Under the pieces are notes generated by a model. That model was given only the letters and a program-made list of their open reading frames with translations. It was not told the DNA's origin and made no database searches. A program made the translations under genes and the position numbers. A stretch of DNA of 64,000 nucleotides, taken from positions 1,807,045 to 1,871,044 of the forward strand of contig OZ252215.1 of NCBI GenBank assembly GCA_965249025.1. Direction: 5' to 3'. Position 1 is the first letter of the stretch. The number at the start of each line of letters is the position of its first letter. Positions 1,967-61,815 of this stretch are shown here, piece by piece. The stretch is from Dehalococcoidia bacterium (GTDB lineage: Bacteria > Chloroflexota > Dehalococcoidia > Lucifugimonadales > CAYTFF01).

Positions 1967-2980
1967 ATGAAGATTAGCATCGGAGTGCCAACGTCTCATG
2001 AGGGGCCATACCTGCCTACATCCTTCGTTGGGCCTGAAGAGATCGTCCAGGTAACCCAGCTTGCAGAGCGGCTGGGCTTCTACGCCGCCTGGGCGCTGGA
2101 CATGATGACGCCTATTAATATCGGCCTCACCGAACCAGGAGAGCCCCCTAACTGGTATGAGGCGATGGTCAGCCTGTCCTATCTGGCGGCGGCAACGAAA
2201 ACAATCAAACTGGGCACCGCTACCATGGTACTGCTTCACAGGGATCCCGTCCTGTTAGCCAAGCAGGTGGCTACCCTGGACGTATTTAGCAAGGGAAGAC
2301 TGCTCCTTGGTGTCGGCCTAGGGCACTACCGCGAAGAGTTCGAGGCGATAATGCCAAGGCAACGTAAGTCCCACCGCGGCAGGATGTTTCTGGAGAGTCT
2401 GGAAGCTCTGGACGTGCTTCTAACTCAGGACGATGCCAGCTTCAAAGGGGAGTACTACGAATTTCAAGGAGTGTTCCTAAACCCAAAGCCAGTACAAAAC
2501 CCCCTTCCGATCTATATCTCTGGCAAGACCGATGATACTCCTAGGCGCGTTGCTCGGTATGGCGCTGGCTGGCTTCTGTCCCGCATGCAAAAGCGAACCG
2601 TTCAGGAAAGGATCGAAGAGCTTCCTCCATATTTGGAGGAAGCGGGCCGGAAGCGATCCGATATCGATATAGTCGTTACTAGAGGACTCAGCATAGGGAA
2701 AACGCACGAAGAGGCTATGGAGCGTTTCTACAGCAGCATTCTCCCCCGGCAGATGGATGTCTATGCGACAAGGGCAGGGATAGAGGGACGGCCCTCTGAG
2801 GATAGGGCGCTGGACCAGAATCTTATAGGCACGCCGCAGGAGATCGGCGAACAGATGCATAGGATAAAAGAGTATGGTGTCGACCACCTTGTCATATTCT
2901 ATTTTGCCGTAAACGAGTTCAAGGAGATGATGGAACAAACCCAGTGGTTTGGTGAAGAGGTCATGCCCCTTTTCAAGTAA
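1967..2980 (+). CDS. LLM-class flavin/F420-dependent oxidoreductase, type B
   Basis: The ORF-track start at 1961 abuts the GAGGAG RBS. ATG 1967 (MKISIG..) gives 6-nt spacing and matches the MKFG.. starts of paralogs 12733-13683 and 45505-46503. Shared block: LDVFSKGR..LGVGLG. Confidence 0.85.
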   Translation: MKISIGVPTSHEGPYLPTSFVGPEEIVQVTQLAERLGFYAAWALDMMTPINIGLTEPGEPPNWYEAMVSLSYLAAATKTIKLGTATMVLLHRDPVLLAKQVATLDVFSKGRLLLGVGLGHYREEFEAIMPRQRKSHRGRMFLESLEALDVLLTQDDASFKGEYYEFQGVFLNPKPVQNPLPIYISGKTDDTPRRVARYGAGWLLSRMQKRTVQERIEELPPYLEEAGRKRSDIDIVVTRGLSIGKTHEEAMERFYSSILPRQMDVYATRAGIEGRPSEDRALDQNLIGTPQEIGEQMHRIKEYGVDHLVIFYFAVNEFKEMMEQTQWFGEEVMPLFK

Positions 2981-3125
2981 CGTGGCGCTCATTTGGCGCA
3001 CTAGCCAAACGAGACCGTTGAGTGGCCTCTAGCGCTCGCCTGGTTGCTTCTTGCCACCCGCACGGAACTGGAGTACATTAGAGCCGTTAAGCTGAGAGCC
3101 AATTATCCCTTTGAGGAGGACCATT

Positions 3126-4484
3126 GTGGACACTAAAGGCGCAGCCGCTTTCGTTGCATCTCTGAACCTGGAGGCAACTCCGCAAAAGGTAGTGAAACAT
3201 GCCAAGCTCTGTGTGATGGATACCCTTGGTGTTATGCTGGGGGGCCTGGATACCGGGGCTGCGCGCATAGCTCGAGATGTGGTTTCTCTTTGGCCCAATC
3301 AGGATGGTGTTACCCTCTTCGGAAGCCAAAAGAGGGTTTCTCCACCCCAGGCTGCCTTCGCCAACTGTATTTCAGCCAGCGCCCTGGATATGGACGACGG
3401 CCACAACCTGGGTGGTCACCCTGGGGCCGTGATTGTGCCTGCTGTTCTGGCTGCTGCTGAAGCCACCGGAGCCTCAGGCAAGCTATTCCTGGAGGGCGTC
3501 GTCACCGGATACGAAATTGCCATTAGGGCAATGGAGACTATGGTGGCCCAGGAGTCTGGAGGCGCCGTTGCCTTTCCTGCTACAGGCGAGCCATACCACA
3601 GCACCGGCACTGGGGCCGCCTACGGAGCCGCAGCAGGTGCCGCTAAGGTGCTTGGCCTCGGAGTGGAAGGGATAGCCCAGGCCATCAACATAGCCTCCGC
3701 TCACACACCCAGCACTCGGCCGTACCAGATTCAGGTGCTGGGTCACAATGCCAAGGAGTGCATCGGCTGGGCTGGTATAACCGGTGTAGAGGCCGCCTAT
3801 TTGGCCAAACATGGCTTCACAGGCCCCAACTCCTTCTTCGATGATGAGCGTGCTAGAGGCACCAGCGTCGATAGCATTGGCTCTACCTTTGAGTTGGTGA
3901 ACAACTATTTCAAGGCCTATCCGTCGTGCCGGTATACCCACGCGGCCCTTGACGGCGCCCTGGTGCTAATAAAAGAGAAATCTCTCAACGGAGAAGGCAT
4001 AAGGCGCATAAGATTGTCCCTTAAGAAACATCATGCTGCTTTGAACAACCCTAGGCCAGCTACCATAGAGCAGGCCCAATACAGCTTTCCATTTGTTCTT
4101 GGGGCCGTCCTGGCCTACGGACACCATGGCCCGGACACCATGACCGACGAGAAGCTCAGGGACTCTGCCATTCTCAGGGAGGCCGAGAAGATTGTGCTGG
4201 AGCCCGATCCCTCTCTCGATAAGGATAGATGGCCTGCCCATGTCTCCATAGAAACCACAGATGGCAAGAACTATCAGCTTTATGTGCCTATACCTAAAGG
4301 AGACCCCAAGAACCTTTTGAGCGAGAGTGAGTTGACTTCGAAGTTCAACACCGTTTCGTTGCCTGCGTTGGGACAGGATGGCGCTAAGAAAGCTTTGGAC
4401 ACCATTAAGAGCCTGGAGTCCCTGGGAGATGTACGTGAGTTAACGGCTCTGCTGAACCAGGTTGTCCAGCAGCCGGTGGGCTAA
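3126..4484 (+). CDS. MmgE/PrpD family protein (2-methylcitrate dehydratase-like)
   Basis: N-terminal ..AKLCVMDTLGVMLGG.. and overall length are typical of MmgE/PrpD. GTG 3126 is preferred over the track start 3111 because GAGGAGG lies 6 nt upstream. Confidence 0.8.
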   Translation: MDTKGAAAFVASLNLEATPQKVVKHAKLCVMDTLGVMLGGLDTGAARIARDVVSLWPNQDGVTLFGSQKRVSPPQAAFANCISASALDMDDGHNLGGHPGAVIVPAVLAAAEATGASGKLFLEGVVTGYEIAIRAMETMVAQESGGAVAFPATGEPYHSTGTGAAYGAAAGAAKVLGLGVEGIAQAINIASAHTPSTRPYQIQVLGHNAKECIGWAGITGVEAAYLAKHGFTGPNSFFDDERARGTSVDSIGSTFELVNNYFKAYPSCRYTHAALDGALVLIKEKSLNGEGIRRIRLSLKKHHAALNNPRPATIEQAQYSFPFVLGAVLAYGHHGPDTMTDEKLRDSAILREAEKIVLEPDPSLDKDRWPAHVSIETTDGKNYQLYVPIPKGDPKNLLSESELTSKFNTVSLPALGQDGAKKALDTIKSLESLGDVRELTALLNQVVQQPVG

Positions 4485-4906
4485 CGCGAACCAACGTTTC
4501 GCTGAAGGATCTAAGTGGAAAACGGCTTCCTGGGCATCTGCTTGAGAGTGGCTTGTCTCATGCGTTCTGAACAGCTCTAAGAAGAAGTTGTAGAAGACGA
4601 GCGACGGCTACTCAATGAACTCAAGGACGGTAAGGCTAGGCCCCTGCATAACTAACAAACACCCCTTCGTTTTGAGCCTTGGGAGTTTTTCTGACAGCTA
4701 GTCCTAGTCGAAGAACTCATCTCGCGAATCGACGCTTCGGGCCGGATAAGAAGGGAAAATTCACGTTTCTAATCGTTAGTCAGGTGAGGGCTTAGCCTCA
4801 TAGTTCACTGCCTGTGCCTAAACAAGGTGATTGCAGTGCGAGACCTTGCCCTCTTCCTCCAACTCTTCTACAATCCACCTAACCTACTTGACCAAAGGGG
4901 TGTGTG

Positions 4907-50545: not shown

Positions 50546-51045
50546 TTGTCGTACATCGCCACCTGCTTTCCGGGATTTTGACCGACCCTCAGTCGATATC
50601 TGATTTCCGTGCAGTGCGGTTGAACGTATGGAGTCCATAGTTATCTTTAGCCCTTCTTACATAATTGCGTCGACATTAGTGTCAAAGCCAGCAGCCAGAT
50701 TTGATGGAGTCAGGGGTTCTACCTATGTCACTTCCACTTGAAGTAACGACGCCTCATCTAAGTTTTAATCTTAGCATATATGGCATATAAAGTTTAAGAG
50801 TGCACTCACTCACCTATTATAATTGCAAATCTACATAGGAGGAGCAAGGCGCATTCCGCTGCATGGCGGATGGGTATTTTGTTCTTGCTAGGCGTTGCCT
50901 TGCCATCAAGGCGTCCTTCTACAAGACGTTTGGCCTGCCATGAGGTATGACGCACAGCCTTACTAGAAAATGAGTGGAGCTAGAATGAAGGGGGCGCTTG
51001 ATAGCCGCCATCGGCGCGGGGAGTCAGCTTACAAATGGGACTAGC

Positions 51046-51780
51046 ATGACTGTGGAAAGCCGCCTGGTAATAGTGTCTAATCGCTTACCATCGCTTAGAC
51101 TTCCTACCAACGAGGCAGAATGCAGAACCGCTCCCGTAGGTGGTCTGGTGACGGCACTTCAGGCTGCTCTCGAAATGACGGATGGTCTTTGGTTTGGGTG
51201 GAGTGGTGAGACAGAAGAGGGTGATTCCAAGAGTGCCCCAAAGTTGTCTAAGGTGGGTCAAATTCAACTGGCTTCCATGGATCTATCCGAGGAAGATGTC
51301 GACCTATTCTATAACGAGTTCTGCAACAGAACCCTCTGGCCCCTGCTTCACAGCTTTCCGTCAAAGACTAATATCCGCCGCGATGCTTTCAGCGCATATC
51401 TTGAAACCAATCGTAAGTACGCCGAAGCCCTCTTCTGTGTGCTTAAGGAAGGGGATCTGATCTGGGTCCATGACTATCATCTCATACCTCTAGGCCATGA
51501 GCTAAGACGCCTGGGTTGGGAAAGAAAGATAGGGCATTTTATACATACTCCGTTCCCGCCGTCGGAGATATTTACGGTCTTGCCTTGGGCCAGCCAACTG
51601 TTGAATATGTTTCTAGGCTACGATCTGGTCGGCCTACACACCCGCCGTTACGTTAATAACTTTCATGACAGCCTATGTTATGAGTTGCCAGGCGATATCA
51701 TAGGGGATATGTTCACCGATGGCAGCCGCTTCCTCAAGGTAAGCACTTGTCCTATCGGCATAAACCCAAAGGCCTTCCAG
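51046..51780 (+). pseudogene. otsA: Trehalose-6-phosphate synthase (GT20), N-terminal half only
   Basis: ..LVIVSNRLP..GGLVTAL..LWFGWSG..LWPLLHSF..IWVHDYHLIPL..FIHTPFPPSEIF..PIGINP.. Similarity ends at about 51780. Confidence 0.75.
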
Positions 51781-52449
51781 CACGTGACAGGCCAGTTCGC
51801 CTACTACGTCTGCGGGACATTGTTCCGGGAGGGAGCGGGGACGTGCAGCGCCCGCTACCTGAACGCCCCCAGGGTGGAGGACTTCATTGTTGAGAAGATA
51901 CGGGAGCGAATCCTCACCGAGGAGACCATCGTGGAGCTGGTGACGCTGGTGGCGGAAGAGATCGACGCAATGGCCGGTGAGCTGTCCGGCAGGCTGGAGG
52001 TCATCGAGGCCGAGCTGGGGGACGTGAGGAAGCGTCTTGAGCGGCTCTACGAGGCCATTGAGACCAGCAAGCTGACCCTAGAGGTCCTGTCGCCCCGCAT
52101 CATGTCTCTGAGGCACCGTGAGGAGCAGCTTGAGGCTGCGCGTGACGACGCCGCAACTCAGTTGGAGCAGCGAAGGGTTGAGCTACCGACCACCGAGGAG
52201 ATCAAGGGGTACGTTGCGGACTTCCGGGACTTCTTGCAGGAGGGGACGATCCCCGAGTGCAAGGCGCTCATCCGCAACTTCGTGGAGGGCATCGAGGTAG
52301 TCGGAGACGAGGCGACCCTGACGTACACCGTCCCCATGCCAAACGACGGCGTAACCAGCGAATCGGCCTCGGTTCTTGATTTCGTCAAGTCCGGCCCACC
52401 AAACTTGACGGTAGACAGTACCATCTTTGAATTGTGCGTGGTCTTGTGA
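51781..52449 (+). pseudogene. Large serine recombinase, C-terminal fragment (zinc-ribbon/coiled-coil part), fused in frame to the otsA fragment
   Basis: ..YYVCGT..GTCSARYLNAPRVEDFIVEKIRERIL.. plus a long coiled coil. The N-terminal resolvase catalytic domain is absent. GC content visibly rises at the junction. Confidence 0.7.
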
Positions 52450-54217: not shown

Positions 54218-54368
54218 GACCCTAAATGGGACCGGCGCAATGCCCTCAATGTGATCTGTCATGGTTGGTCTCGGCGAAGATTCTGTAGCTGCCGTTGCCA
54301 AGTTGCGATCATTGCTGGCAAGCGACCCGTCCATTCATGGCTCCAATAAGCCGGAGTTGCCGGGTTGA
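54218..54368 (+). pseudogene. 3'-terminal remnant of a paralog of the 952-aa methyltransferase-like gene (frameshifted)
   Basis: Translates DPKWDRRNALNVI / (shift) / VMVGLGEDSVAAVAKLRSLLASDPSIHGSNKPELPG*. Compare ..DPVRIELDERIVRDLLGLGEDAVTSVARLRQLLASDPSIHGSKSPELPI* at 57529-57650 (minus strand). Confidence 0.7.
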
Positions 54369-54489
54369 GAAGTGTAGACGTTAGCGCCATTGCCGACTCC
54401 GGTCGCCAGGGTAAAGCCTACCTAAGCAGGAAACACCTATCGAGCGCCGGACGATAGTGGCGGTGTAGGTTTAACTCGAAAGGGGAACT

Positions 54490-54649: not shown

Positions 54650-55069
54650 GTGATGTACGTCCTAAGAGCGCGTCGACGGATCGGCGGCATAAGTCTCGTT
54701 CTGGCTATCACACTAGCCGCGCTGCTCCCCTATTGGGGACAGTTCTTAGACCATCATTTTGTGGAGCGGGTGCCCCTCCACCATCATGTCTATCATGGGG
54801 CCGTCCCCTCTGAGCATCTTCACTCTTATGAGATGGGGCACATTCATGGTGAGGCCATAAATGGCTCAGAAGATGGTATCATCTTCCTGCCGCCAGGCAA
54901 AGAGGGTGCTACTGGGTTTAGCGGCCTCGAACTGATACCCGGGTTGCTTACCGTGTCCTTTGTTCTCGTGATTCCCGCTGTTGTAGCGCTGATCCTCTCA
55001 CTATGTCATAAGAGACCCCATGCCTTCAGCCCTCCACCGTTGAGACCACCCCCACGACTGATCTCCTGA
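54650..55069 (+). CDS. His-rich membrane protein (139 aa)
   Basis: N-terminal TM, His-rich segment HHFVERVPLHHHVYHGAVPSEHLHSYEMGHIHGE, second TM, Pro-rich tail. Confidence 0.5.
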   Translation: MMYVLRARRRIGGISLVLAITLAALLPYWGQFLDHHFVERVPLHHHVYHGAVPSEHLHSYEMGHIHGEAINGSEDGIIFLPPGKEGATGFSGLELIPGLLTVSFVLVIPAVVALILSLCHKRPHAFSPPPLRPPPRLIS

Positions 55070-55170: not shown

Positions 55171-55752
55171 ATGTCGGCACACTGGCAACATCTTGTAGCT
55201 AGATCCGCACGGTTGGTGGTGCTTTCGTTAAGCGTGATTGTAGCAACGTTGGCTCCACTGACCGAGGTTAGCGCCAACGGCCCCCATATAAGACCGGAAG
55301 AGCTCTTCTCTGGTTCCGTTGGTCCCTACACCATTAAAGTGGAGGTGATTCCCATAGTCGGCCCAGTCCACATGACTGTCGTGGTGTTCGATGCTGTTAG
55401 TCATTTCCCTGTGAGTGACGCCACGATTAAGGTGACCGGCCGGGGGTCGGAGAGCGGCATCCAGGCCGGCCCGGTACTCGGCACCTACATTGCCAGGTCA
55501 CAAACCTATACGATGACGGTCCCCGCAGAGGAACCGGGCGACTGGGTGTTTACGATGGTGGTGACCAGCACTCTCGGTGAAGAGGTGCTGGATATGCCGG
55601 TGGTTCTTGTTCGAGGTGAATCAGGGGTTGGCTGGACCGTCATAGGCACGGCAGTCGTTCTGATCGGCCTGTTGCTTTGGTTCGCTGGGAAGGCGTTGAG
55701 GAAAGGTAAACAGCGCATGTCGCCTAGACCCCAAGGCCGCAAGAAACGGTGA
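55171..55752 (+). CDS. FixH/YtkA-like Ig-fold protein with C-terminal TM anchor
   Basis: Signal peptide; ..GPYTIKVEVIP..VHMTVVVFD..PVSDATIKVTG..GDWVFTMVV.. pattern; C-terminal TM + basic tail. The family call is tentative. Confidence 0.4.
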   Translation: MSAHWQHLVARSARLVVLSLSVIVATLAPLTEVSANGPHIRPEELFSGSVGPYTIKVEVIPIVGPVHMTVVVFDAVSHFPVSDATIKVTGRGSESGIQAGPVLGTYIARSQTYTMTVPAEEPGDWVFTMVVTSTLGEEVLDMPVVLVRGESGVGWTVIGTAVVLIGLLLWFAGKALRKGKQRMSPRPQGRKKR

Positions 55753-55781
55753 TTCTTACTCTAAAGGCAGGAGCATCTGTG

Positions 55782-56018
55782 ATGAAACTGATCAACACGA
55801 GAGTGATTACGACAGCCCTGACAGTGGTGACCGCTCTGGTCGTCGCCGCCTGTGCTGGAGGAGAACTGAAGGAACACAGGTTCGAGTTGCAGGTACAAAA
55901 GCAGTCGTTGACACAAGGGGACTCCGTCCTTCGAGTAAAGAAGGACGACACGGTGACGATAGTGGTCACTTCGGACGAGCCCATCTCCTTCCATCTGCAC
56001 GGCCGCATAGAAGACTAG
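55782..56018 (+). pseudogene. Cupredoxin-like lipoprotein, 3'-truncated right after the HLHG motif
   Basis: Lipobox ..LVVAAC; ..LRVKKDDTVTIVVTSDEPISFHLHG then 4 unrelated codons and a stop. AGGAG RBS before ATG 55782. Confidence 0.5.
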
Positions 56019-56153
56019 GAATGCAGCGACCCATGCGAAGAGCTTGGCGTCCTCCTTGACCGTACCCAGTGTCGTAACAGCAGCTAGGCTTGCTGCGACT
56101 GCTGTAGAGAGTACAGAAGTCAAGGTGAGCATGGCGACGAGCTTGGACTCCAT
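56004..56153 (-). pseudogene. Small membrane-protein gene downstream of the ATP-grasp gene, apparently 3'-truncated at the same junction
   Basis: MESKLVAMLTLTSVLSTAVAASLAAVTTLGTVKEDAKLFAWVAAFLVFYAA.. then reads antisense through the cupredoxin fragment. Weak RBS. Confidence 0.25.
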
Positions 56154-56212
56154 GGACTTATTACGTTCCTCCACCTGGGTTAGACGAGATGGAAGGATAC
56201 TGATTACGTCGG

Positions 56213-57244
56213 CTAGGCTTCCAGCGTGTTTAGCACTGAAGCGATCCTGGTCTTTGGGAGCAGGCTTCGCATGCCCGGCAAGGTGCGGCCATATCCAGTC
56301 CGATATTCGATCATAGAGTCTGAGATGGGCAATCCAAGTTGATCTTCGAGCCAGAGCCACTCGCCGTTTGGATTGATTTCAAAGAACACGTAGGTCCCGT
56401 CCGGCTTGAGTGCGGAGTCTATTGCCCCAAATATGAGTCCTAGGCGAGATACCAGACGTAGGCAGCGATGAGCGAGTGCCGGGGGCAACTCATGCGTCCT
56501 ATGCTCCAAGTCAGGATCGTCGGTCGCCCGCCAATCCACTTTGCTCGACTCTCGGTCCTCGGACATGATTTCGGCAGCGAAGACCTCCTCCCCCACTACC
56601 GTCAAGCGGATGTCCGAGGATTTCTCCACGTTCTCTTGAAAGGTGACTGGAGCGAGCACCAATCCATCAAGGTCTTCAAGATCAGCCGGGGCCAGGGCGC
56701 TGGTGAAGACCGCCTGATTCCCATCGGGACCCGCAATGTAGCCTGAACTCACAGGCTTGGCCACGAGCCGGCGTTCCTCGGCAAATTCCCTTACGGCTGC
56801 TTGGTCATTCGTCACGATTGTGTATGGCAACGTGAAGCCTAGCTGGGCAGCCACCGCAAGTTGATAGGGCTTCCGTTCCGCGCGCCAGATGGCCTGTGGA
56901 GAGCTTAACCAGCATTGCGTTGGCAATGCTGCCAGGGTCCCTTCTAGGAGCGTGCGCGCCTCTCGTTTACAGAACTCCCGAGTGCCCGGGTCCAGGTCGT
57001 CAGGTAGGTTCGGAACGACGTTGCGCCGATACCAGACGGACTTGATCTCCTTATCTGAAATGCTCCGCGTCCCATCAGAGATCGTAAGGCCCTCCTGCGG
57101 ATCGAAGCTCGCACGGACCCCTGACGGAAACTGATCGGTGTCCAGCCTGAAGGAAGGAATGCCACGGCGCTCCAAAGTCGAACCGACGTACCTGGGGGCC
57201 GGGTCATAAGAGGTCGTCACAAGAAGAACAGTACCAGCGGTCAT
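56213..57244 (-). CDS. ATP-grasp ribosomal peptide maturase (MvdC/MvdD-like graspetide ligase)
   Basis: 343 aa from ATG 57244 (MTAGTVLLVTTSYD..); ..KSVWYRR.., ..FFEINPNGEWLWLE.. ATP-grasp C-terminal motifs. The track start 57364 is an out-of-frame shadow of the peptide gene. Confidence 0.75.
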   Translation of the reverse strand: MTAGTVLLVTTSYDPAPRYVGSTLERRGIPSFRLDTDQFPSGVRASFDPQEGLTISDGTRSISDKEIKSVWYRRNVVPNLPDDLDPGTREFCKREARTLLEGTLAALPTQCWLSSPQAIWRAERKPYQLAVAAQLGFTLPYTIVTNDQAAVREFAEERRLVAKPVSSGYIAGPDGNQAVFTSALAPADLEDLDGLVLAPVTFQENVEKSSDIRLTVVGEEVFAAEIMSEDRESSKVDWRATDDPDLEHRTHELPPALAHRCLRLVSRLGLIFGAIDSALKPDGTYVFFEINPNGEWLWLEDQLGLPISDSMIEYRTGYGRTLPGMRSLLPKTRIASVLNTLEA

Positions 57245-57374
57245 CAGTCGTTTCGCGGTTGACCCTGGTTGAGATGGTTCCCTTCTCAGAAGTTGCGTTG
57301 CCCGAGTTGGACTTTGCCTCTTCTTTGGAGGGACGCTTGACGAACCTCGCCAAGAACGGTGCATTTGCAGACAT
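57204..57374 (-). CDS. Graspetide (microviridin-like) precursor peptide, 56 aa, not in the ORF track
   Basis: AAGGAGG sits 6 nt before ATG 57374. My translation: MSANAPFLARFVKRPSKEEAKSNSGNATSEKGTISTRVNRETTDDRWYCSSCDDLL*. PFLARF leader motif. Overlaps the ligase start by 41 nt. Confidence 0.7.
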   Translation of the reverse strand: MSANAPFLARFVKRPSKEEAKSNSGNATSEKGTISTRVNRETTDDRWYCSSCDDLL

Positions 57375-57528
57375 GAATGTCCTCCTTAAGTAAGTGCCGA
57401 CATCTCCCTATTACCATTATCCTATTTCACTTTTTAGTGCGGCTGCTCAGCTAAACCGCACTAGTGCACTGGCAGTCGTCCATCAACAGCAACCAATACC
57501 ACCCGCACTTCCAAGACCGGATACTTCC

Positions 57529-60387
57529 TCAAATCGGCAACTCCGGACTCTTGGAGCCATGAATAGACGGGTCACTGGCCAGTAGCTGGCGCAGCCGGGC
57601 TACTGATGTCACGGCGTCTTCACCGAGGCCCAGCAGGTCTCTAACTATGCGCTCATCCAACTCGATACGCACGGGATCGACTGCGCACTGATGGAAGGAC
57701 AGGAACTTCCGGTCATTAAAGTCTTGCCAGATTGCTAGGGCCTCGTCGAGTTGCCAAGCTTCGAGCTTCCGCACGTCAAGTCCGACGAGTTCCTCCAGCA
57801 TCGCCCTGTTGCCTGTACCCCTACCTGCTTGCGCCCTATTGGAGTGATTAGCGTGTAGCAGCATTCCAAGAGTGGAGTTGCACCAAAGAGCCAAAGCGAT
57901 TTCTCGGCGAGACCTGACCATGGGGTTAGTCTCTTGCACAACCAGGGTGAACCATGCTCGCACTCCCAGCGCTCGGACGTTAGTGCACGTTGTCATTATT
58001 CGCTGCGAGTTGTATCTAACATCCCCTGTAAAGTGGAGCGCGCCTGCCTGCGACCAAATTGGCTGATAGTCAATGCCGGGCTTGGGGATAAGCCAAGCGT
58101 TAGGTTCCGCAACCATACTCTGATGAACTGACGCCGATTGTCCCCAAATTGCAGGCAGTTGGGCTTGCTCATTGTATCCGTGATAAGCCTCGAAGGCCCC
58201 ATGTGAGCCACGAATGCTTCGATGTTCTGGTCCCACGTTGCAGATTTCGGCCATGTCGGCGACCGGGAAATGACCGACAAGCTGAACTCCATCATCGGCC
58301 CACAACTCGCCCCGCTCGACAGCTACGGCGAACTGACCCGTTAAGACTCGCTTCCACCGGGCAGCTGTCCAAGGTCCCTCTCCTACAGGGCCGTCCACGA
58401 CCTCGCCCCACTGCTCTCCACCGATGATCAACGGATTGCCCCCTACCGGCGGCCCATCGGACTGGAGCAGAGGCATTGAGGCCGCCGCGTTCACAGCCCG
58501 GACCAGAGCCAAGGCGTCCGTCTCCTGGTAAGGCGCACGCCAGAGGTTGACGAATCTCCCACGCCCGGACGGGTGCTCACCCTCCCTAAGCCGACGGGCG
58601 ACAAGCAGCGCCTCGGCTATGGCTGTGTCGTAGGACATCGATAGAAGCGCAGGGTCGTGGGATGAGACCACGAACTCGATTTCATACTTGGAGGACAGCA
58701 TCCGGCGGACCTCACGCCAAGACTCGCCGAATAATGCTGTTACCGGCAACACCAGTGCGATCCGTCCTCCGGGAGTTACCAGACGATCAGCCAGGACAGT
58801 AAATGATGAAGCGTGTCCGGCAACCTTGTTTGCTGGGGTGCCTTGGAGTAGGCTAGATATGTGATCCACCATAGATATCAGCGAGTCCGCATTGTCGGCC
58901 GGTAAAGAGAACACGCTTGCCAACGAAGAACGGTCCTTGCCTCCGTCATTTCCACTTCTAGTGTACGGGGGATTACTTATGACTAGATCGGCCATCGGAC
59001 GCTGGACGATGCCTCCGGTACCGCTTGCCGCCCCTATCTGTTCTTCTGTCGTGGAGAAGAAAGATTGGGTTTCGGGAGCCTCTAGCCAGTCCAGAGACCC
59101 GAAATGAGCGTGGCCTGATGAGTCCATGCCATATTGAAGGGTGTGGAGCTGCATCTGCTCGAATCTCACCGAGGGAGACATCGCCGCGAGAGTTGCCGCG
59201 GTCAGGTGGATAGCAGCCTGCACTACGTCAGCCCCGGTAATGACCCTCTCCACCAGAGCCTGATGAAGAAACGGGTCATCGGAATAGTCGGGAGTCGCAG
59301 CCGAGTGGTTCTGGACTATCTGCCGGTACGCAGCCATGAGCAGGGTCCCTGTCCCGCAGGCTGGGTCAACCACGCGCAGTTGGGAGATTCCCTCGGCGCT
59401 GCTCCAATCAACGTGGGACCATCTGGCTGGGTGCAGAGCCAGCCCCGCAAGGAGAGTGGACGCGGGGATGCTCGTATAGAAGGCAGCCAGCAGCTTCCGC
59501 TCCGAAATCAGCCGGTTGAAAATCCTCCCAGCCAGGTCGTGGCGTCCAACGGCTCCCATGCCCAGCAGCGCAGCGGCAGTCCTGGCGCACTCGCCCAGTA
59601 CCTCCGCCGCTTCAACTTCGGAAAGCTCCTGCACTACGTCCCGAGCCATGCTGAATATGGGGTAGTAGTCGATGCTAAGGATGTGCTCCCATACCTGCAG
59701 CAGCGTCATGCGTGAGAAGCGTCCGTCTCGCATCGCTACACTCACCGGCTGGAATGCCACCTCATTGCTGGCCAGCCTCTCTTGGAAGACCATAGCGTTG
59801 ATAATGACCAGCGCGGCCATGTTAGCTGCTTCGTCGCCGGGATCTGCGCCGAAGATCTTTGAGACCCGGCCCAACGTACCGGGGGAGGAGTAGAGCCAGG
59901 AACCGGCGCGCCTGGCCCCCTCGTCAAGGGCGTCAACCGCTTCATCGAGGTCGCCAGCTGGCGGGCTTGTCCGCTCGACAGCATTCCCGAGTTCCATTGC
60001 AGTCCCACTGAGCTTGGGGCCGGAAGTGCCGTCTATGCGCCATTCCTGCCACACCAGCGTCGCGCCTGCCATACGCGCGTACAGGTGCTGCTGGCCCGTC
60101 GAGCGCAGCCCTACAGGAACCGTGACGGCGAAGACGTTCTGAACCTTATGACCGTCTATCTCCATACCAAGTCGGGAGAGGGCGTCCGCTTCCACGGTCA
60201 AGGCAGGTTCAAGCTCGGTTTCCAGAATCACAGGGCCTTCGGGTTGACGGACGATGATGTCTGGACGCCTGCCATCGTGCAGCGTCTCAGCGACCGCGGA
60301 CAGACTGCACCGTTCCCGAAGGAACCGGGCCAGCGTGTCGTTGATGATGCTTTCGTGGCTGCGGTCTTTGCGATTAGCGATTGTCAT
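57529..60387 (-). CDS. Large fused restriction-endonuclease-like / gamma-class N6-adenine DNA methyltransferase protein (Type IIG/IIL-like)
   Basis: 952 aa. N-terminal ..RRPDIIVRQPEGPVILETELE.. (PD..ExK-like, Lys replaced), motif I VVDPACGTGTLL, motif IV VISNPPYTRS. The C-terminal ~400 aa are TRD-like (..ALWCNSTLGMLLH..). Confidence 0.7.
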   Translation of the reverse strand: MTIANRKDRSHESIINDTLARFLRERCSLSAVAETLHDGRRPDIIVRQPEGPVILETELEPALTVEADALSRLGMEIDGHKVQNVFAVTVPVGLRSTGQQHLYARMAGATLVWQEWRIDGTSGPKLSGTAMELGNAVERTSPPAGDLDEAVDALDEGARRAGSWLYSSPGTLGRVSKIFGADPGDEAANMAALVIINAMVFQERLASNEVAFQPVSVAMRDGRFSRMTLLQVWEHILSIDYYPIFSMARDVVQELSEVEAAEVLGECARTAAALLGMGAVGRHDLAGRIFNRLISERKLLAAFYTSIPASTLLAGLALHPARWSHVDWSSAEGISQLRVVDPACGTGTLLMAAYRQIVQNHSAATPDYSDDPFLHQALVERVITGADVVQAAIHLTAATLAAMSPSVRFEQMQLHTLQYGMDSSGHAHFGSLDWLEAPETQSFFSTTEEQIGAASGTGGIVQRPMADLVISNPPYTRSGNDGGKDRSSLASVFSLPADNADSLISMVDHISSLLQGTPANKVAGHASSFTVLADRLVTPGGRIALVLPVTALFGESWREVRRMLSSKYEIEFVVSSHDPALLSMSYDTAIAEALLVARRLREGEHPSGRGRFVNLWRAPYQETDALALVRAVNAAASMPLLQSDGPPVGGNPLIIGGEQWGEVVDGPVGEGPWTAARWKRVLTGQFAVAVERGELWADDGVQLVGHFPVADMAEICNVGPEHRSIRGSHGAFEAYHGYNEQAQLPAIWGQSASVHQSMVAEPNAWLIPKPGIDYQPIWSQAGALHFTGDVRYNSQRIMTTCTNVRALGVRAWFTLVVQETNPMVRSRREIALALWCNSTLGMLLHANHSNRAQAGRGTGNRAMLEELVGLDVRKLEAWQLDEALAIWQDFNDRKFLSFHQCAVDPVRIELDERIVRDLLGLGEDAVTSVARLRQLLASDPSIHGSKSPELPI

Positions 60388-60546: not shown

Positions 60547-60843
60547 CTACGATGTTGGCTGCGGCTGGTAGCGTTCGACCCGTATCAGGTCTTCGCCCTT
60601 GCGCGCTTGCGCTAGGTCGTAGGAAGTCTGCCTGCGCAGCCAGAAATCCGCGCTGGACCACCCAGCCTTTTCAAGGCGAATGGCCATGTCGGGCGAGATT
60701 GCGGCGTGGCCATTCAATACCCGCGAAAGGGTGTGGCGGGCAACGTCCAGAACCTCCGCTGCCTCGGTGACACTTAGACCAAGGGGCTCCAGGCAGTTTT
60801 CCCTGATGCCTCGGCCCGGATGGGGTGGATTCTTCATAGCCAT
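60547..60843 (-). CDS. higA: HigA-family antitoxin (XRE HTH)
   Basis: 98 aa; ..[40 protein letters not shown].. Confidence 0.85.
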
Positions 60844-60859
60844 CGTCTTTTCCCTCTCG

Positions 60860-61138
60860 CTAGTGATAGTCGACTAGATCAACGTCATACACGTCGCCAT
60901 CTTCGAATCGGAAGGTGATCCGCCAGTTGCCCGATATCGAAATGCTCCACGAACCTCTCCGGTCACCCCTGAGGGGATGCAGTCTGTACCCCGGCAAATC
61001 AAGGTCGCTCGGCTTGCTGGCGACATCGAGGTCCGCCAGGGCGAGAGTAATCCGATCCAGTTGGTCGGCACCTATCCTGCTGGGATCGCCTCGCTCATAG
61101 AGCCGCCTCAGTCCTCGATGGCGAAAGGACTGGATCAT
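60860..61138 (-). CDS. higB: HigB-like RelE/ParE-superfamily toxin (plasmid maintenance system killer)
   Basis: 92 aa; [58 protein letters not shown]. Confidence 0.85.
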
Positions 61139-61173: not shown

Positions 61174-61389
61174 CAGCTTCATCGCTGCTCCAAACTCTTC
61201 GACACCCCTTTGTGTGTCCTCTTCAGGGCTCCCACCAGTATGACGTCGGTGCCGCTTCCTGTGACGAACACAGGAGACAGCGGGTCTCCTGTGTTCGACT
61301 TATAGAAGGCCCTTACCGCGCACTCCTCGTATCTGGTGGACCCCGGGTCGGGGAGCTCCGCCATCGTTCTGCTAGGACAAGTGGGACGG

Positions 61390-61815
61390 GAAGGATCCGG
61401 GTCGTCGACTTTCCCGGAGGTCCAGCCTGGGGACCTGCACCTGGTGGGCATCAGGCACATCCTGGCAGCACCCTTCCACCCTCAGACCAATGGCAAGCTG
61501 GAGCGCTATCACCAGACTATCAAGCAGGACGTTAACCAGGTCCCCTACGAGGTGCCGTCCGACCTCGAGGAGGCAATCGCCGCTTTTGTGGGCTACTACA
61601 ACCACAAGCGCTATCACATGGCCCTGGGCAACGTCACGCCTGCTGACGTGCTCAACGGGAGGCGGGAGCAGATCCTACAACGGAGGAAGGAGGTGCAGGT
61701 CCAGACGATCGAACGGAGAAGACGCTATAACAGGACCCTCAAGGAGCTCGCCCGACACTCCTCATAACAATAACCTTCTCGGGTCTCAAAGTGTCCCACT
61801 TTTGCTGATTGACAA
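61390..61815 (+). mobile_element. 5'-truncated DDE (rve-type) transposase fragment with probable terminal inverted repeat
   Basis: ..HLVGIRHILAAPFHPQTNGKLERYHQTIK..YYNHKRYHMALGNVTPADV.. to stop 61767. The N-terminal two thirds are absent. The ..AAAGTGTCCCACTTTTGCTGATTGACA end is about 45 nt after the stop. Confidence 0.7.

What the first reader, a model, noticed from the sequence alone, without database searches (positions are those of the whole stretch)
56213..57374. Unannotated microviridin-like precursor peptide plus ATP-grasp ligase: a graspetide cluster with a non-canonical, Cys-containing core
A 56-codon ORF starts at ATG 57374 on the minus strand and ends at TGA 57204-57206. It falls below the 60-aa cut-off of the supplied track. 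A perfect AAGGAGG sits 6 nt upstream of the ATG. My translation is MSANAPFLARFVKRPSKEEAKSNSGNATSEKGTISTRVNRETTDDRWYCSSCDDLL.

The ORF lies directly upstream of an ATP-grasp gene and overlaps its start by 41 nt. That gene resembles MvdC/MvdD-type RiPP macrocyclases (KSVWYRR, FFEINPNGEWLWLE).

The peptide carries PFLARF, very close to the PFFARFL leader helix that microviridin ligases recognise. ISTR recalls the start of the microviridin J/K core (ISTRKYPSDWEEW, from memory). The remaining C-terminus, RETTDDRWYCSSCDDLL, is not the TxKxPSDx(D/E)(D/E) core. It has Thr/Ser donors and Asp acceptors, no Lys and two Cys. Only one ligase is present, which fits ester-only crosslinks.

The 40-residue N-terminal extension the ORF track gives the ligase is an out-of-frame shadow of this peptide gene.
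Basis: partly seen in the sequence, partly recalled or inferred. Interest (0 to 1): 0.78.

Follow-up and report, generated by a model that had tools for sequence, protein, structure and literature searches.

The report
Decayed copy of a graspetide cassette
The small peptide gene and its ATP-grasp cross-linking enzyme are real and belong to a large three-gene family of ribosomal-peptide (graspetide) cassettes that I found described nowhere, but the copy in this window is damaged and its cysteine-rich tail comes from a lost stop codon.

Summary
The 56-codon ORF, the AAGGAGG 6 nt upstream, the 41-nt overlap with the ligase and the ligase start at ATG 57244 are all as described.

The graspetide reading is right in kind. 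At least 22 homologous loci carry 1-3 small ORFs before the ligase. Their pattern is M..PFL(A/T)(K/R)F(A/S)..TxxTxVxxETTD(D/E)x-stop.

The "non-canonical Cys-containing core" is not a family feature. All 45 homologous precursors stop one residue after TTDD (at most; one has none). In the window that stop (TGA/TAA/TAG) has become TGG. The peptide then reads 10 more codons (WYCSSCDDLL) out of frame through the ligase N-terminus.

It encodes a ~210-aa three-helix membrane protein and follows the ligase in every homologous locus.

The window copy carries three lesions. A 42-nt deletion removes the ligase's last 8 codons and stop, plus the third gene's start. The third gene is cut off at ~55993. 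The ligase lineage shows raised dN/dS, about 0.4 against about 0.1 for the family.

The ligase is roughly equidistant from the MvdC, MvdD and SAV_5884 subfamilies and falls below all their cut-offs. No curated precursor family matches.

The cassettes sit next to restriction-modification, SIR2, TIR, GmrSD, toxin-antitoxin and transposase genes.

Verdict: an eroded member of a large, apparently undescribed graspetide group.

The parts
57381..57387 (-). Shine-Dalgarno-like AAGGAGG, 6 nt upstream of the precursor ATG
   Evidence: A similar motif precedes 20 of 25 homologous precursor starts.
57204..57374 (-). Precursor peptide ORF as it now reads (56 aa plus TGA)
   Evidence: Homologous ORFs occur in at least 22 loci.
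57342..57359 (-). Leader motif PFLARF (residues 6-11). The family consensus is PFL(A/T)(K/R)F, a counterpart of the microviridin PFFARFL recognition helix.
   Evidence: P6 and L8 are invariant; F7 and F11 are at least 90% conserved in 34 precursors. The motif's role is taken from PMC8939145.
57237..57278 (-). Family core TISTRVNRETTDDR (residues 33-46), pattern TxxTxVxxETTDDx. Homologues end here.
   Evidence: T33, T36, V38, E41, T42 and D44 are invariant; T43 and D45 are at least 90% conserved.
57234..57236 (-). TGG codon (W47) at the position where all homologues have the precursor stop codon (TGA, TAA or TAG). This is the stop-loss. The same change makes ligase residue 4 Gly instead of Asp/Asn.
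   Evidence: DNA comparison with 9 loci.
57207..57236 (-). Read-through extension WYCSSCDDLL, specific to this sequence. It is an out-of-frame reading of ligase codons 3-13.
   Evidence: Absent from all 45 homologous precursors.
56318..57244 (-). ATP-grasp graspetide ligase, the family-homologous part (residues 1-309)
   Evidence: PF21068 74.8 bits. TIGR04187 252, MvdC 236 and MvdD 235 bits, all below their cut-offs. MdnC 5ig9 E=1e-54. More than 340 homologues at 58-89% identity among the 120 listed.
56213..56317 (-). Aberrant ligase tail (34 aa plus stop) that replaces the conserved C-terminal RIAAWLxx. It arises from reading on after the deletion.
56318..56321 (-). Junction of a 42-nt deletion, flanked by AGAC microhomology in homologues. 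The deletion removed the ligase's last 8 codons and stop, plus the ATG of the third gene.
   Evidence: Alignment with L001, L002, L005 and L017; sequence.
55993..56321 (-). Remnant of the third cassette gene (a ~210-aa three-helix membrane protein). It has no start codon and is cut after about residue 130, so it lacks the conserved cytoplasmic helix and TM3.
   Evidence: tblastn and blastn homology ends at 55993-55995 in all loci. Full-length gene in 22 loci.
55993..55993 (.). Rearrangement breakpoint. The truncated third gene abuts an unrelated, apparently also truncated, convergent ORF (55749-56018, +).
   Evidence: Weak Cu-oxidase_2 match for the + ORF.

Best explanation
The region is an eroded copy of a conserved three-gene graspetide (omega-ester RiPP) cassette: precursor peptide(s), one MvdD-type ATP-grasp ligase, and a ~210-aa three-helix membrane protein.

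**How intact copies most likely work (inferred by analogy)**
1. The N-terminal leader helix PFL(A/T)(K/R)F docks on the ligase, as PFFARFL does on MdnC.
2. The ligase uses ATP to activate Asp/Glu side chains.
3. It joins them to Thr hydroxyls within the C-terminal core TxxTxVxxETTDDx, forming side-chain ester macrocycles. No amide forms, because there is no conserved Lys and only one ligase.
4. The membrane protein is translationally coupled to the ligase. It acts as partner, scaffold, exporter or immunity protein.

**What the sequence comparison shows for the window copy**
- The precursor's stop codon mutated to TGG, adding 10 residues (WYCSSCDDLL) read out of frame from the ligase start.
- A 42-nt deletion replaced the ligase's C-terminal helix and removed the third gene's start.
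- A rearrangement at ~55993 removed the third gene's distal ~80 codons.

The copy is therefore probably non-functional or only partly functional.
For: **Family identity**
- PF21068 lies above its cut-off. The nearest curated families are RiPP maturases, and RimK is far weaker. MdnC, MdnB, AMdnB and CdnC are the best solved relatives.
- Precursor conservation: 41 ORFs in 20 loci plus 4 in two distant loci. All have the leader motif and the ETTD(D/E)x-stop ending.
- Ligase dN/dS across the family is 0.08-0.13, which indicates purifying selection.

**Third gene**
- It is present directly after the ligase, with overlapping stop and start, in all 22 family loci.
- Its family has 576 clusters at 50% identity. 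The two distant members examined again follow an MvdD-type ligase and ETTDD precursors.

**Erosion of the window copy**
- Stop-loss.
- 42-nt deletion.
- Homology to every locus ends at ~55993.
- Pairs that include the window give dN/dS 0.20-0.21. A three-taxon branch estimate from the distances gives about 0.42 for the window, against 0.09 for L001 and 0.13 for L052.
- The window ligase deviates at 7 of 115 columns that are at least 95% conserved. The 115 homologues have a median of 1 and a maximum of 6.
Against: - No chemistry is shown. Ester formation, ring topology, leader removal and the third protein's role are all inferred.
- The ligase ORF is still open for 309 homologous residues with its catalytic motifs intact. 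The precursor keeps its ribosome-binding site, leader and core. Peptide and ligase might therefore still work without the third gene.
- Four of the seven deviant ligase positions are conservative or lie outside known catalytic motifs.
- The junction at 55993 could be an assembly chimera rather than biology. I could not check reads.
- The dN/dS branch estimate is crude: Nei-Gojobori distances, three taxa.
Confidence: 0.72

Rival explanations
1. One reading: a functional graspetide cluster whose product has a novel Cys-containing core. The extension WYCSSCDDLL would be part of the mature peptide and might add a disulfide or extra Ser/Asp esters.
For: The ORF is intact with a strong Shine-Dalgarno motif. 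The extension supplies 2 Cys, 2 Ser and 2 Asp. The ligase is open for 309 homologous residues.
Against: - The tail is unique among 46 precursors.
- It arises from a change in the stop codon.
- Its sequence is dictated by the overlapping, conserved ligase N-terminus TVLLVTTSYD. It has therefore not been selected as a peptide.
- The rule of one residue after TTDD also holds for upstream tandem copies that do not overlap the ligase, so the short C-terminus is itself constrained.
- The same locus carries two further lesions.
Confidence: 0.1
2. The cassette family is not a conventional secreted natural-product cluster. It would be a defence-island conflict module, anti-phage or abortive-infection-like. 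The ligase-modified peptide would regulate, or act together with, the three-helix membrane protein as effector.
For: - Seven of the 8 loci with precomputed Pfam neighbours carry restriction, defence or toxin-antitoxin genes within about 8 kb (several also transposases or an integrase). These include GmrSD, KAP NTPase, DUF1156+DUF499, SIR2+DUF87, type I and type IIG R-M, TIR/ThsB_TIR, AbiEii, HEPN and PIN.
- The window, L001, L002 and L017 have a large N6-methyltransferase directly upstream.
- The window also has HigB/HTH and an rve remnant.
- A related ligase plus third-protein pair sits in a Leptospira phage genome.
- A few third-gene proteins have a faint PycTM (Pycsar effector) match.
- The cassette has no protease or ABC exporter.
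- There is a precedent for anti-phage RiPPs: lanthipeptides, bioRxiv 10.1101/2024.06.26.600839.
Against: - The ligase and the third protein hit no PADLOC model.
- The PycTM match is 11 bits, E=0.45, in 1 of 7 proteins rescanned, so it is noise level.
- Neighbours also include ordinary metabolic genes.
- Bacteriocin and RiPP clusters are themselves often carried in mobile or defence regions (PMC12715929, title and abstract). Co-location is therefore not specific.
- I ran no control for the background frequency of defence genes.
Confidence: 0.15
3. The apparent erosion is an artefact of metagenome assembly or consensus errors, and the real genome carries an intact cassette.
For: Related loci come from metagenome-assembled genomes. 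Several homologues also show split ligase ORFs (L012, L015, L017). Some third-gene proteins in the database look frameshifted (P0121-P0123). The tail-to-tail junction of two truncated genes at 55993 is what a chimeric join would look like.
Against: The stop-loss is a substitution embedded among other substitutions (GCTGACACGGTG to GCTGGTACTGTT). The deletion is a clean 42-nt loss between AGAC repeats, which is typical of replication slippage and not of read errors. The raised dN/dS and the excess of deviations at conserved sites are independent of assembly.
Confidence: 0.08

Closest known systems
Microviridin-type (group 1) graspetide systems: MdnA precursor with MdnC/MdnB (MvdD/MvdC) ligases
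   Same: The ligase has the MvdD pre-ATP-grasp domain. MdnC (189 bits) and MdnB (185 bits) are its best solved relatives. The leader carries PFL(A/K/R)F in the place of PFFARFL. The precursor gene lies directly upstream of the ligase.
   Different: - One ligase, not two.
- The core is TxxTxVxxETTDDx, not TxKxPSDx(D/E)(D/E), and it has no conserved Lys.
- The precursors do not match any Pfam precursor model, the microviridin model included (0 of 34).
- The ligase scores 236 against a cut-off of 425 (MvdC) and 235 against 475 (MvdD).
- There is no GNAT or ABC-transporter gene. A three-helix membrane protein is present instead.
Thuringinin/plesiocin-type single-ligase graspetide clusters (groups 2, 3, 5, 6; the 'thuringinin branch' of Makarova et al. 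2022, PMC8939145)
   Same: [quoted passage not shown] This is stated for plesiocin and thuringinin in bioRxiv 10.1101/2021.05.19.444834. 'Cluster 18' membrane proteins are described in PMC8939145.
- The core is a Thr...Thr...Glu...Asp...Asp arrangement.
- A Leptospira phage cassette has a third protein homologous to the one here (E=1e-9). Its two-core precursor resembles, by my reading of the two sequences, that of Leptospira sp. B5-022, whose ligase that paper assigns to the thuringinin branch.
   Different: - Similarity of the ligase to PsnB is weak (50 bits).
- The leader is of the microviridin type.
- There is a single C-terminal core ending one residue after DD, not repeated cores.
- I could not test whether the third protein is homologous to the thuringinin or plesiocin membrane proteins themselves.
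SAV_5884 / TgmB graspimiditide systems (TIGR04187 ligase, TIGR04186 precursor, PIMT-type O-methyltransferase)
   Same: This is the best-scoring NCBIfam model for the ligase (252 bits, full length). Streptomyces tgmB genes are about 36% identical to a family ligase (P0001).
   Different: The score is below the 350-bit cut-off. No O-methyltransferase appears in any locus. The precursors do not match TIGR04186.
Leptospira phage vB_LalZ_80412-LE1 cassette (KF114876.1, LEP1GSC193_0768-0770)
   Same: Three overlapping genes in the same order: a small ORF, a ligase annotated 'RimK-like ATP-grasp' (35% identical to a family ligase, P0001), and a 207-aa protein that matches the third-gene profile (E=1e-9).
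   Different: The precursor has a different, two-part core (TKTDTIREVDDD...TKTEENKEQDE) and no PFL leader is evident. It is carried by a phage.

Membership tests
Graspetides (omega-ester/amide RiPPs made by ATP-grasp ligases) | ATP-grasp ligase of the MvdD/MdnC type with a pre-ATP-grasp domain | tested here: met
   PF21068 74.8 bits against a cut-off of 27. MdnC 5ig9 E=1.3e-54. RimK_fam scores only 40.5 bits.
Graspetides (omega-ester/amide RiPPs made by ATP-grasp ligases) | Small precursor gene next to the ligase, conserved across homologous loci | tested here: met
   41 ORFs in 20 loci plus 4 in 2 distant loci. Eight invariant positions.
Graspetides (omega-ester/amide RiPPs made by ATP-grasp ligases) | Leader with a P-h-h-x(1,2)-h / PFFARFL-like recognition motif in the first ~30 residues (as defined in PMC8939145) | tested here: met
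   PFL(A/T)(K/R)F at residues 6-11. P6 and L8 are invariant.
Graspetides (omega-ester/amide RiPPs made by ATP-grasp ligases) | Core with conserved Thr/Ser donors and Asp/Glu acceptors | tested here: met
   T33, T36, E41, T42 and D44 are invariant; T43 and D45 are at least 90% conserved.
Graspetides (omega-ester/amide RiPPs made by ATP-grasp ligases) | Side-chain macrolactone or macrolactam links actually formed (-18 Da per link) | not testable with these tools
   Needs co-expression and mass spectrometry.
Microviridins (graspetide group 1) | Core motif TxKxPSDx(D/E)(D/E) | tested here: not met
   The core is TxxTxVxxETTDDx. There is no conserved Lys, Pro or Ser.
Microviridins (graspetide group 1) | Precursor matches a curated precursor model; ligase reaches the MvdC or MvdD equivalog cut-off | tested here: not met
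   0 of 34 precursors match any Pfam or NCBIfam precursor model. Ligase scores are 236 against 425 and 235 against 475 bits.
Microviridins (graspetide group 1) | Two ATP-grasp ligases (ester- and amide-forming) | tested here: not met
   One ligase per cassette in every locus.
SAV_5884 / graspimiditide systems (TIGR04187, TIGR04186, TIGR04188) | Ligase above the TIGR04187 cut-off; TIGR04186 precursor; adjacent PIMT-type O-methyltransferase | tested here: not met
   252 bits against a 350 cut-off. No precursor hit. No such methyltransferase in the neighbourhoods.
Thuringinin/plesiocin-type clusters (single ligase plus membrane protein) | [quoted passage not shown] | tested here: met
   The third gene is present in 22 of 22 family loci. 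The architecture of the known clusters is taken from bioRxiv 10.1101/2021.05.19.444834.
Thuringinin/plesiocin-type clusters (single ligase plus membrane protein) | Sequence homology of the ligase and the membrane protein to PsnB/TgnB and their membrane partners | tested here: inconclusive
   PsnB (7drm) scores only 49.9 bits. The membrane partners of thuringinin and plesiocin were not available. There is an indirect link through a Leptospira phage homologue (E=1e-9).
Known or candidate anti-phage defence systems (PADLOC-DB 2.0) | Component proteins match a defence-system model | tested here: not met
   No hit for the ligase or the third protein. Only the neighbouring genes hit.
Numbered graspetide groups 1-43 (RODEO/SSN; Ramesh 2021, Carter 2026) | Ligase falls in a named SSN group; precursor scored by RODEO | not testable with these tools
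   RODEO and the SSN were not available. Ramesh 2021 is not held. The supplement of PMC13097080 is truncated, and the ETTDD, PFLAKF and Chloroflexota strings are absent from the part held.

The most novel reading that the evidence does not exclude
The ETTDD cassette (precursor(s), ATP-grasp ligase, three-helix membrane protein) is a new defence-island system, not a classical secreted natural product. The cross-linked peptide would either inhibit a phage-encoded target such as a protease, or gate the membrane protein as an abortive-infection effector. That would explain why the cassette has no protease or exporter, travels with R-M, SIR2, TIR, GmrSD and toxin-antitoxin genes, has a relative in a phage genome, and decays readily, as in this window.
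Probability: 0.15. Interest if true: 0.8.

Novelty: new member of a known kind. Interest (0 to 1): 0.42.

Why it matters
**For this window.** It corrects an attractive but wrong reading. The Cys-rich "core" is a read-through artefact in a decaying locus. It is a useful warning for RiPP mining from single sequences with overlapping genes.

**For the field.**
- The comparison exposes a large, coherent graspetide family that I could not find named or described in any text or model library I could search.
- The third protein alone forms 576 clusters at 50% identity.
- The family has a strict C-terminal core, TxxTxVxxETTDDx, a microviridin-like leader, a single ligase and an obligatory membrane partner.
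- It is found mainly in Dehalococcoidia and other uncultured lineages.
- Intact members such as the L001 and L052 versions are ready targets for heterologous expression to define a new ring topology.

**Ecological question.** The cassette sits consistently among defence and mobile genes. This raises a testable question: do some graspetides act in phage or mobile-element conflicts, as has been reported for a family of lanthipeptides?

Tried and rejected
- **Chance ORF:** rejected by conservation.
- **RimK or glutathione-synthetase-type ATP-grasp:** rejected.
- **Exact-sequence look-up of the window ligase:** not on record.
- **Third-gene families:** no Pfam, NCBIfam or PADLOC hit. The precomputed PycTM flag did not hold up on rescanning (11 bits). 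Longer family members carry no informative fused domains.
- **Searching with the truncated window fragment of the third gene:** this found only 3 truncated proteins. The profile search was needed.
- **Plasmid collection:** no match to the third protein. Ligase relatives there are at most 38% identical.
- **Promoter and terminator scan of 55800-57700:** nothing.
- **Literature:**
  - ETTDD plus ATP-grasp gave 0 papers.
  - Graspetide plus Dehalococcoidia gave 0 papers.
  - The motif is absent from the held supplements of PMC8939145 and PMC13097080.
  - Ramesh et al. 2021 is not held.
  - I therefore cannot exclude that the family sits in an unnamed RODEO group.
- **Large methyltransferase as a fixed fourth component:** rejected. 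It is adjacent in the window, L001, L002 and L017, and in a different form in L061, but not elsewhere.
- **Ring topology:** not assigned. The core positions are invariant, so covariation gives no information.
Full report
**1. The observation**

AAGGAGG lies at 57381-57387, 6 nt upstream. The heptamer alone is weak evidence, with 18 copies in the window against 11.8 expected.

The ATP-grasp gene starts at ATG 57244 (MTAGTVLLVT...), which gives the 41-nt overlap. The 383-aa ORF from 57364 is an over-extension. More than 100 homologues are about 317 aa long, and those aligned begin at MTA(D/N)TVLLVT.

**2. The ligase**

- Pfam places residues 5-118 in the MvdD pre-ATP-grasp domain (PF21068, 74.8 bits, cut-off 27).
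- The NCBIfam models for RiPP maturases score 252 bits (SAV_5884 type), 236 (MvdC) and 235 (MvdD). All match over the full length, and all fall below their curated cut-offs of 350, 425 and 475. RimK_fam scores 40 bits.
- The best solved relatives are the microviridin ligases MdnC (189 bits) and MdnB (185 bits), then AMdnB and CdnC. PsnB (plesiocin) scores only 50 bits.
- The enzyme is therefore a RiPP ATP-grasp ligase from a clade of its own.
- The clade is large. There are 341 database clusters at E<=1e-10; the 120 listed are 58-89% identical. Most are from Dehalococcoidia and other Chloroflexota genomes assembled from metagenomes. One is from an Acidobacteriota genome.
- Family dN/dS is 0.08-0.13.

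**3. The precursor is real, but its tail is not**

In the related loci fetched from genomes, a small ORF precedes the ligase. A pattern search found 41 such ORFs in 20 loci, in 1-3 tandem copies. Four more lie in two distant loci.

An alignment of 34 precursors has these features:
- P6, L8, T33, T36, V38, E41, T42 and D44 are invariant.
- F7, F11, T43 and D45 are at least 90% conserved.
- The pattern is M..PFL(A/T)(K/R)F(A/S)(K/R), then a variable and often Pro-rich linker, then TxxTxVxxETTD(D/E)x, then stop.

Every homologue ends at most one residue after the acidic pair. This holds for upstream tandem copies that do not overlap the ligase, so the short C-terminus is a property of the peptide.

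At the DNA level, nine homologues read ...GAT GAC CGC TGA, or TAA or TAG. The window reads ...GAT GAC CGC TGG TAC TGT.... The stop codon has been lost. The extra WYCSSCDDLL is the ligase's own N-terminal coding sequence (TVLLVTTSYD) read in another frame. The same change gives the ligase Gly4 where relatives have Asp or Asn.

The "two-Cys non-canonical core" is therefore a lineage-specific read-through, not a designed core. The "ISTR" resemblance to microviridin J reduces to one conserved Thr.

**4. A third gene, and the damage in this window**

*The third gene in intact loci.* In every family locus the ligase is followed by a gene of about 206-219 codons, and the stop and start overlap. A profile of it finds the gene in all 22 family loci, and weakly in a deltaproteobacterial relative.
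- AlphaFold2 models it confidently (pLDDT 85) as an all-helical protein.
- From the hydrophobic stretches in the alignment and the basic residues after the second one, I infer three membrane helices (about residues 70-92, 100-128 and 188-210) and conserved cytoplasmic parts.
- It matches no Pfam, NCBIfam or PADLOC model, and no solved or viral predicted fold.

*The lesions in the window.*
- A 42-nt deletion between two AGAC repeats removed the ligase's last 8 codons and stop (..ISD|RIAAWLCV*), and also the ATG of the third gene. The ligase now runs on for 34 unrelated residues to 56213.
- Homology of the third gene to all loci stops at 55993-55995, about residue 130. There it abuts a convergent, apparently also truncated, ORF.

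*Signs of relaxed constraint.*
- Ligase pairs that include the window give dN/dS 0.20-0.21, against 0.12 for L001-L052.
- Splitting those three distances into branches gives about 0.42 for the window branch, 0.09 for L001 and 0.13 for L052 (my arithmetic, crude).
- The window ligase departs from the family at 7 of 115 columns that are at least 95% conserved. These are F99L, A164P, V214L and Q229E, plus three in the replaced tail. That is more than any of 115 homologues (median 1, maximum 6).

Taken together, the window holds an eroding copy.

**5. Breadth of the family**

An exhaustive profile search with the third protein found 576 clusters at 50% identity (E<=0.001), of which 365 score at E<=1e-10. 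I looked up two distant members. Both again lie directly after an MvdD-type ligase and two small ORFs ending ...ETTDDN...ETTDDE and ...ETTDES.

A Leptospira phage genome (KF114876.1) carries the same three-gene order. Its ligase is 35% identical, and its third protein matches the profile at E=1e-9. Its precursor core is different. By my reading of the two sequences, that precursor resembles the precursor of Leptospira sp. B5-022. Makarova et al. assign the B5-022 ligase to the "thuringinin branch".

**6. Genomic setting**

The cassette has no fixed fourth gene. Of the 8 loci returned with precomputed Pfam annotation, 7 have restriction, defence or toxin-antitoxin genes within about 8 kb, and several also have transposases or an integrase. 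These include GmrSD, KAP NTPase, DUF1156+DUF499, SIR2+DUF87, type I and type IIG R-M, TIR/ThsB_TIR, AbiEii, HEPN, PIN pairs and an integrase. The eighth has a giant Calx-beta protein.

In the window the upstream neighbour is a 952-aa N6-adenine methyltransferase-like protein. It is shared at 75% amino-acid identity with L002 and L017. Beyond it lie a HigB/HTH pair and an integrase-core remnant.

A pooled scan of 109 neighbouring ORFs also shows ordinary metabolic genes. I ran no background control, so the association is suggestive, not proven.

**7. Mechanism**

*Shown by sequence:* a conserved leader motif, a conserved Thr/Glu/Asp core at the extreme C-terminus, one ligase, translational coupling of all three genes, and no conserved Lys.

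*Inferred from established knowledge of MdnC and microviridin (PMC8939145 and references therein):*
- The PFL..F helix binds and activates the ligase.
- The ligase phosphorylates Asp/Glu carboxylates with ATP and couples them to Thr hydroxyls.
- With four Thr and three acidic residues conserved, two or three esters are possible, for example nested T1/T4 to D12/D13 plus a local T-to-acid ring. I could not assign them.

*The third protein.* It is most simply a membrane partner, scaffold, exporter or immunity protein. [quoted passage not shown] Makarova et al. propose that the "cluster 18" membrane proteins of the thuringinin loci act in peptide transport (PMC8939145). Partner-dependent graspetide ligases are now known (PMC13097080).

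**8. Comparison and novelty**

The cassette works like a single-ligase graspetide system. It is not a microviridin. The core motif, the precursor models, the ligase cut-offs and the two-ligase rule are all not met. It is not a SAV_5884 or graspimiditide system either.

Its architecture matches the thuringinin/plesiocin type. Its leader and ligase similarity lean towards group 1.

I found no mention of the ETTDD core, of this partner protein, or of graspetides in Dehalococcoidia in the searchable literature and supplements. None of the database members carries a name beyond "hypothetical protein" or a generic ATP-grasp label.

The 2026 RODEO survey lists 43 groups and 21,584 predicted peptides. 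Its supplement is only partly held. The family may therefore already sit in an unnamed group.

I rate it a new member of a known kind. The window's own copy is a degraded example.

Noticed in passing
window 50998-52449 (+): A single 483-aa ORF joins the N-terminal half of a trehalose-6-phosphate-synthase-like protein (Glyco_transf_20, profile positions 2-254 of 473) in frame to a recombinase zinc-ribbon and a C-terminal region. It looks like a rearrangement or integration scar at the edge of the island. L001 has a matching remnant of the same C-terminal sequence about 700 nt downstream of its cassette.
   Followed up: partly
window 54262-54369 and 57528-57635: A 108-nt inverted repeat (72%). 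The lower arm is a 35-codon remnant of the 3' end of a second methyltransferase gene, on the + strand. It faces the cassette from the other side of the 55993 breakpoint. This suggests recombination between two related islands.
   Followed up: partly
window 57529-60387 (-): A 952-aa protein with an N6-adenine methyltransferase core (N6_Mtase, MmeI_Mtase; weak PglX, mad2 and type IIG matches). It lies directly upstream of the precursor. It is conserved at 75% amino-acid identity in the same position in L002 and L017, and at 31% in L001. It is not a constant partner of the cassette.
   Followed up: partly
window 60547-61138 (-) and 61336-61767 (+): A HigB-like toxin (60.2 bits) with an HTH_3 antitoxin. 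The pair is shared at 84-89% amino-acid identity with L017, in the same order relative to the methyltransferase. Next to it is an rve_3 integrase-core fragment.
   Followed up: partly
window 55749-56018 (+): An 89-aa ORF with a weak multicopper-oxidase (cupredoxin-like) match (19.6 bits, cut-off 20.4). It ends just past the 55993 junction and appears cut off at its 3' end. The upstream + strand ORFs 54650-55069 and 55171-55752 have no family match.
   Followed up: partly
L003, L005, L010-L019, L043, L053, L056, L058: Many intact cassettes carry two or three tandem, diverged precursor genes, each with its own leader motif and ETTDDx ending. The window has only one.
   Followed up: yes
L012, L015, L017 (ligase); P0121-P0123 (third protein): Several other members also look disrupted. 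Their ligase ORFs are split, or their third-gene products diverge from the family midway. This reflects either recurrent decay of the cassette or indel errors in long-read assemblies.
   Followed up: no
L063 (KF114876.1, Leptospira phage) 2892-4586; L064 (MT835913.1, unverified phage contig) ~3001-3918: MvdD-type ligases occur in two phage records. The Leptospira phage has the full small-ORF, ligase and third-protein arrangement. The faecal phage contig has a ligase 40% identical and a possible upstream ORF ending ...SNGESDDEDSLVH, but no detectable third protein.
   Followed up: partly
window 57440-57470 (-), between the methyltransferase gene and the precursor: A short hairpin-forming repeat (AGTGCGG...CCGCACT) followed by AAAAAG lies in the 155-nt intergenic region, seen by eye in the sequence. 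The promoter and terminator scan reported nothing here.
   Followed up: no
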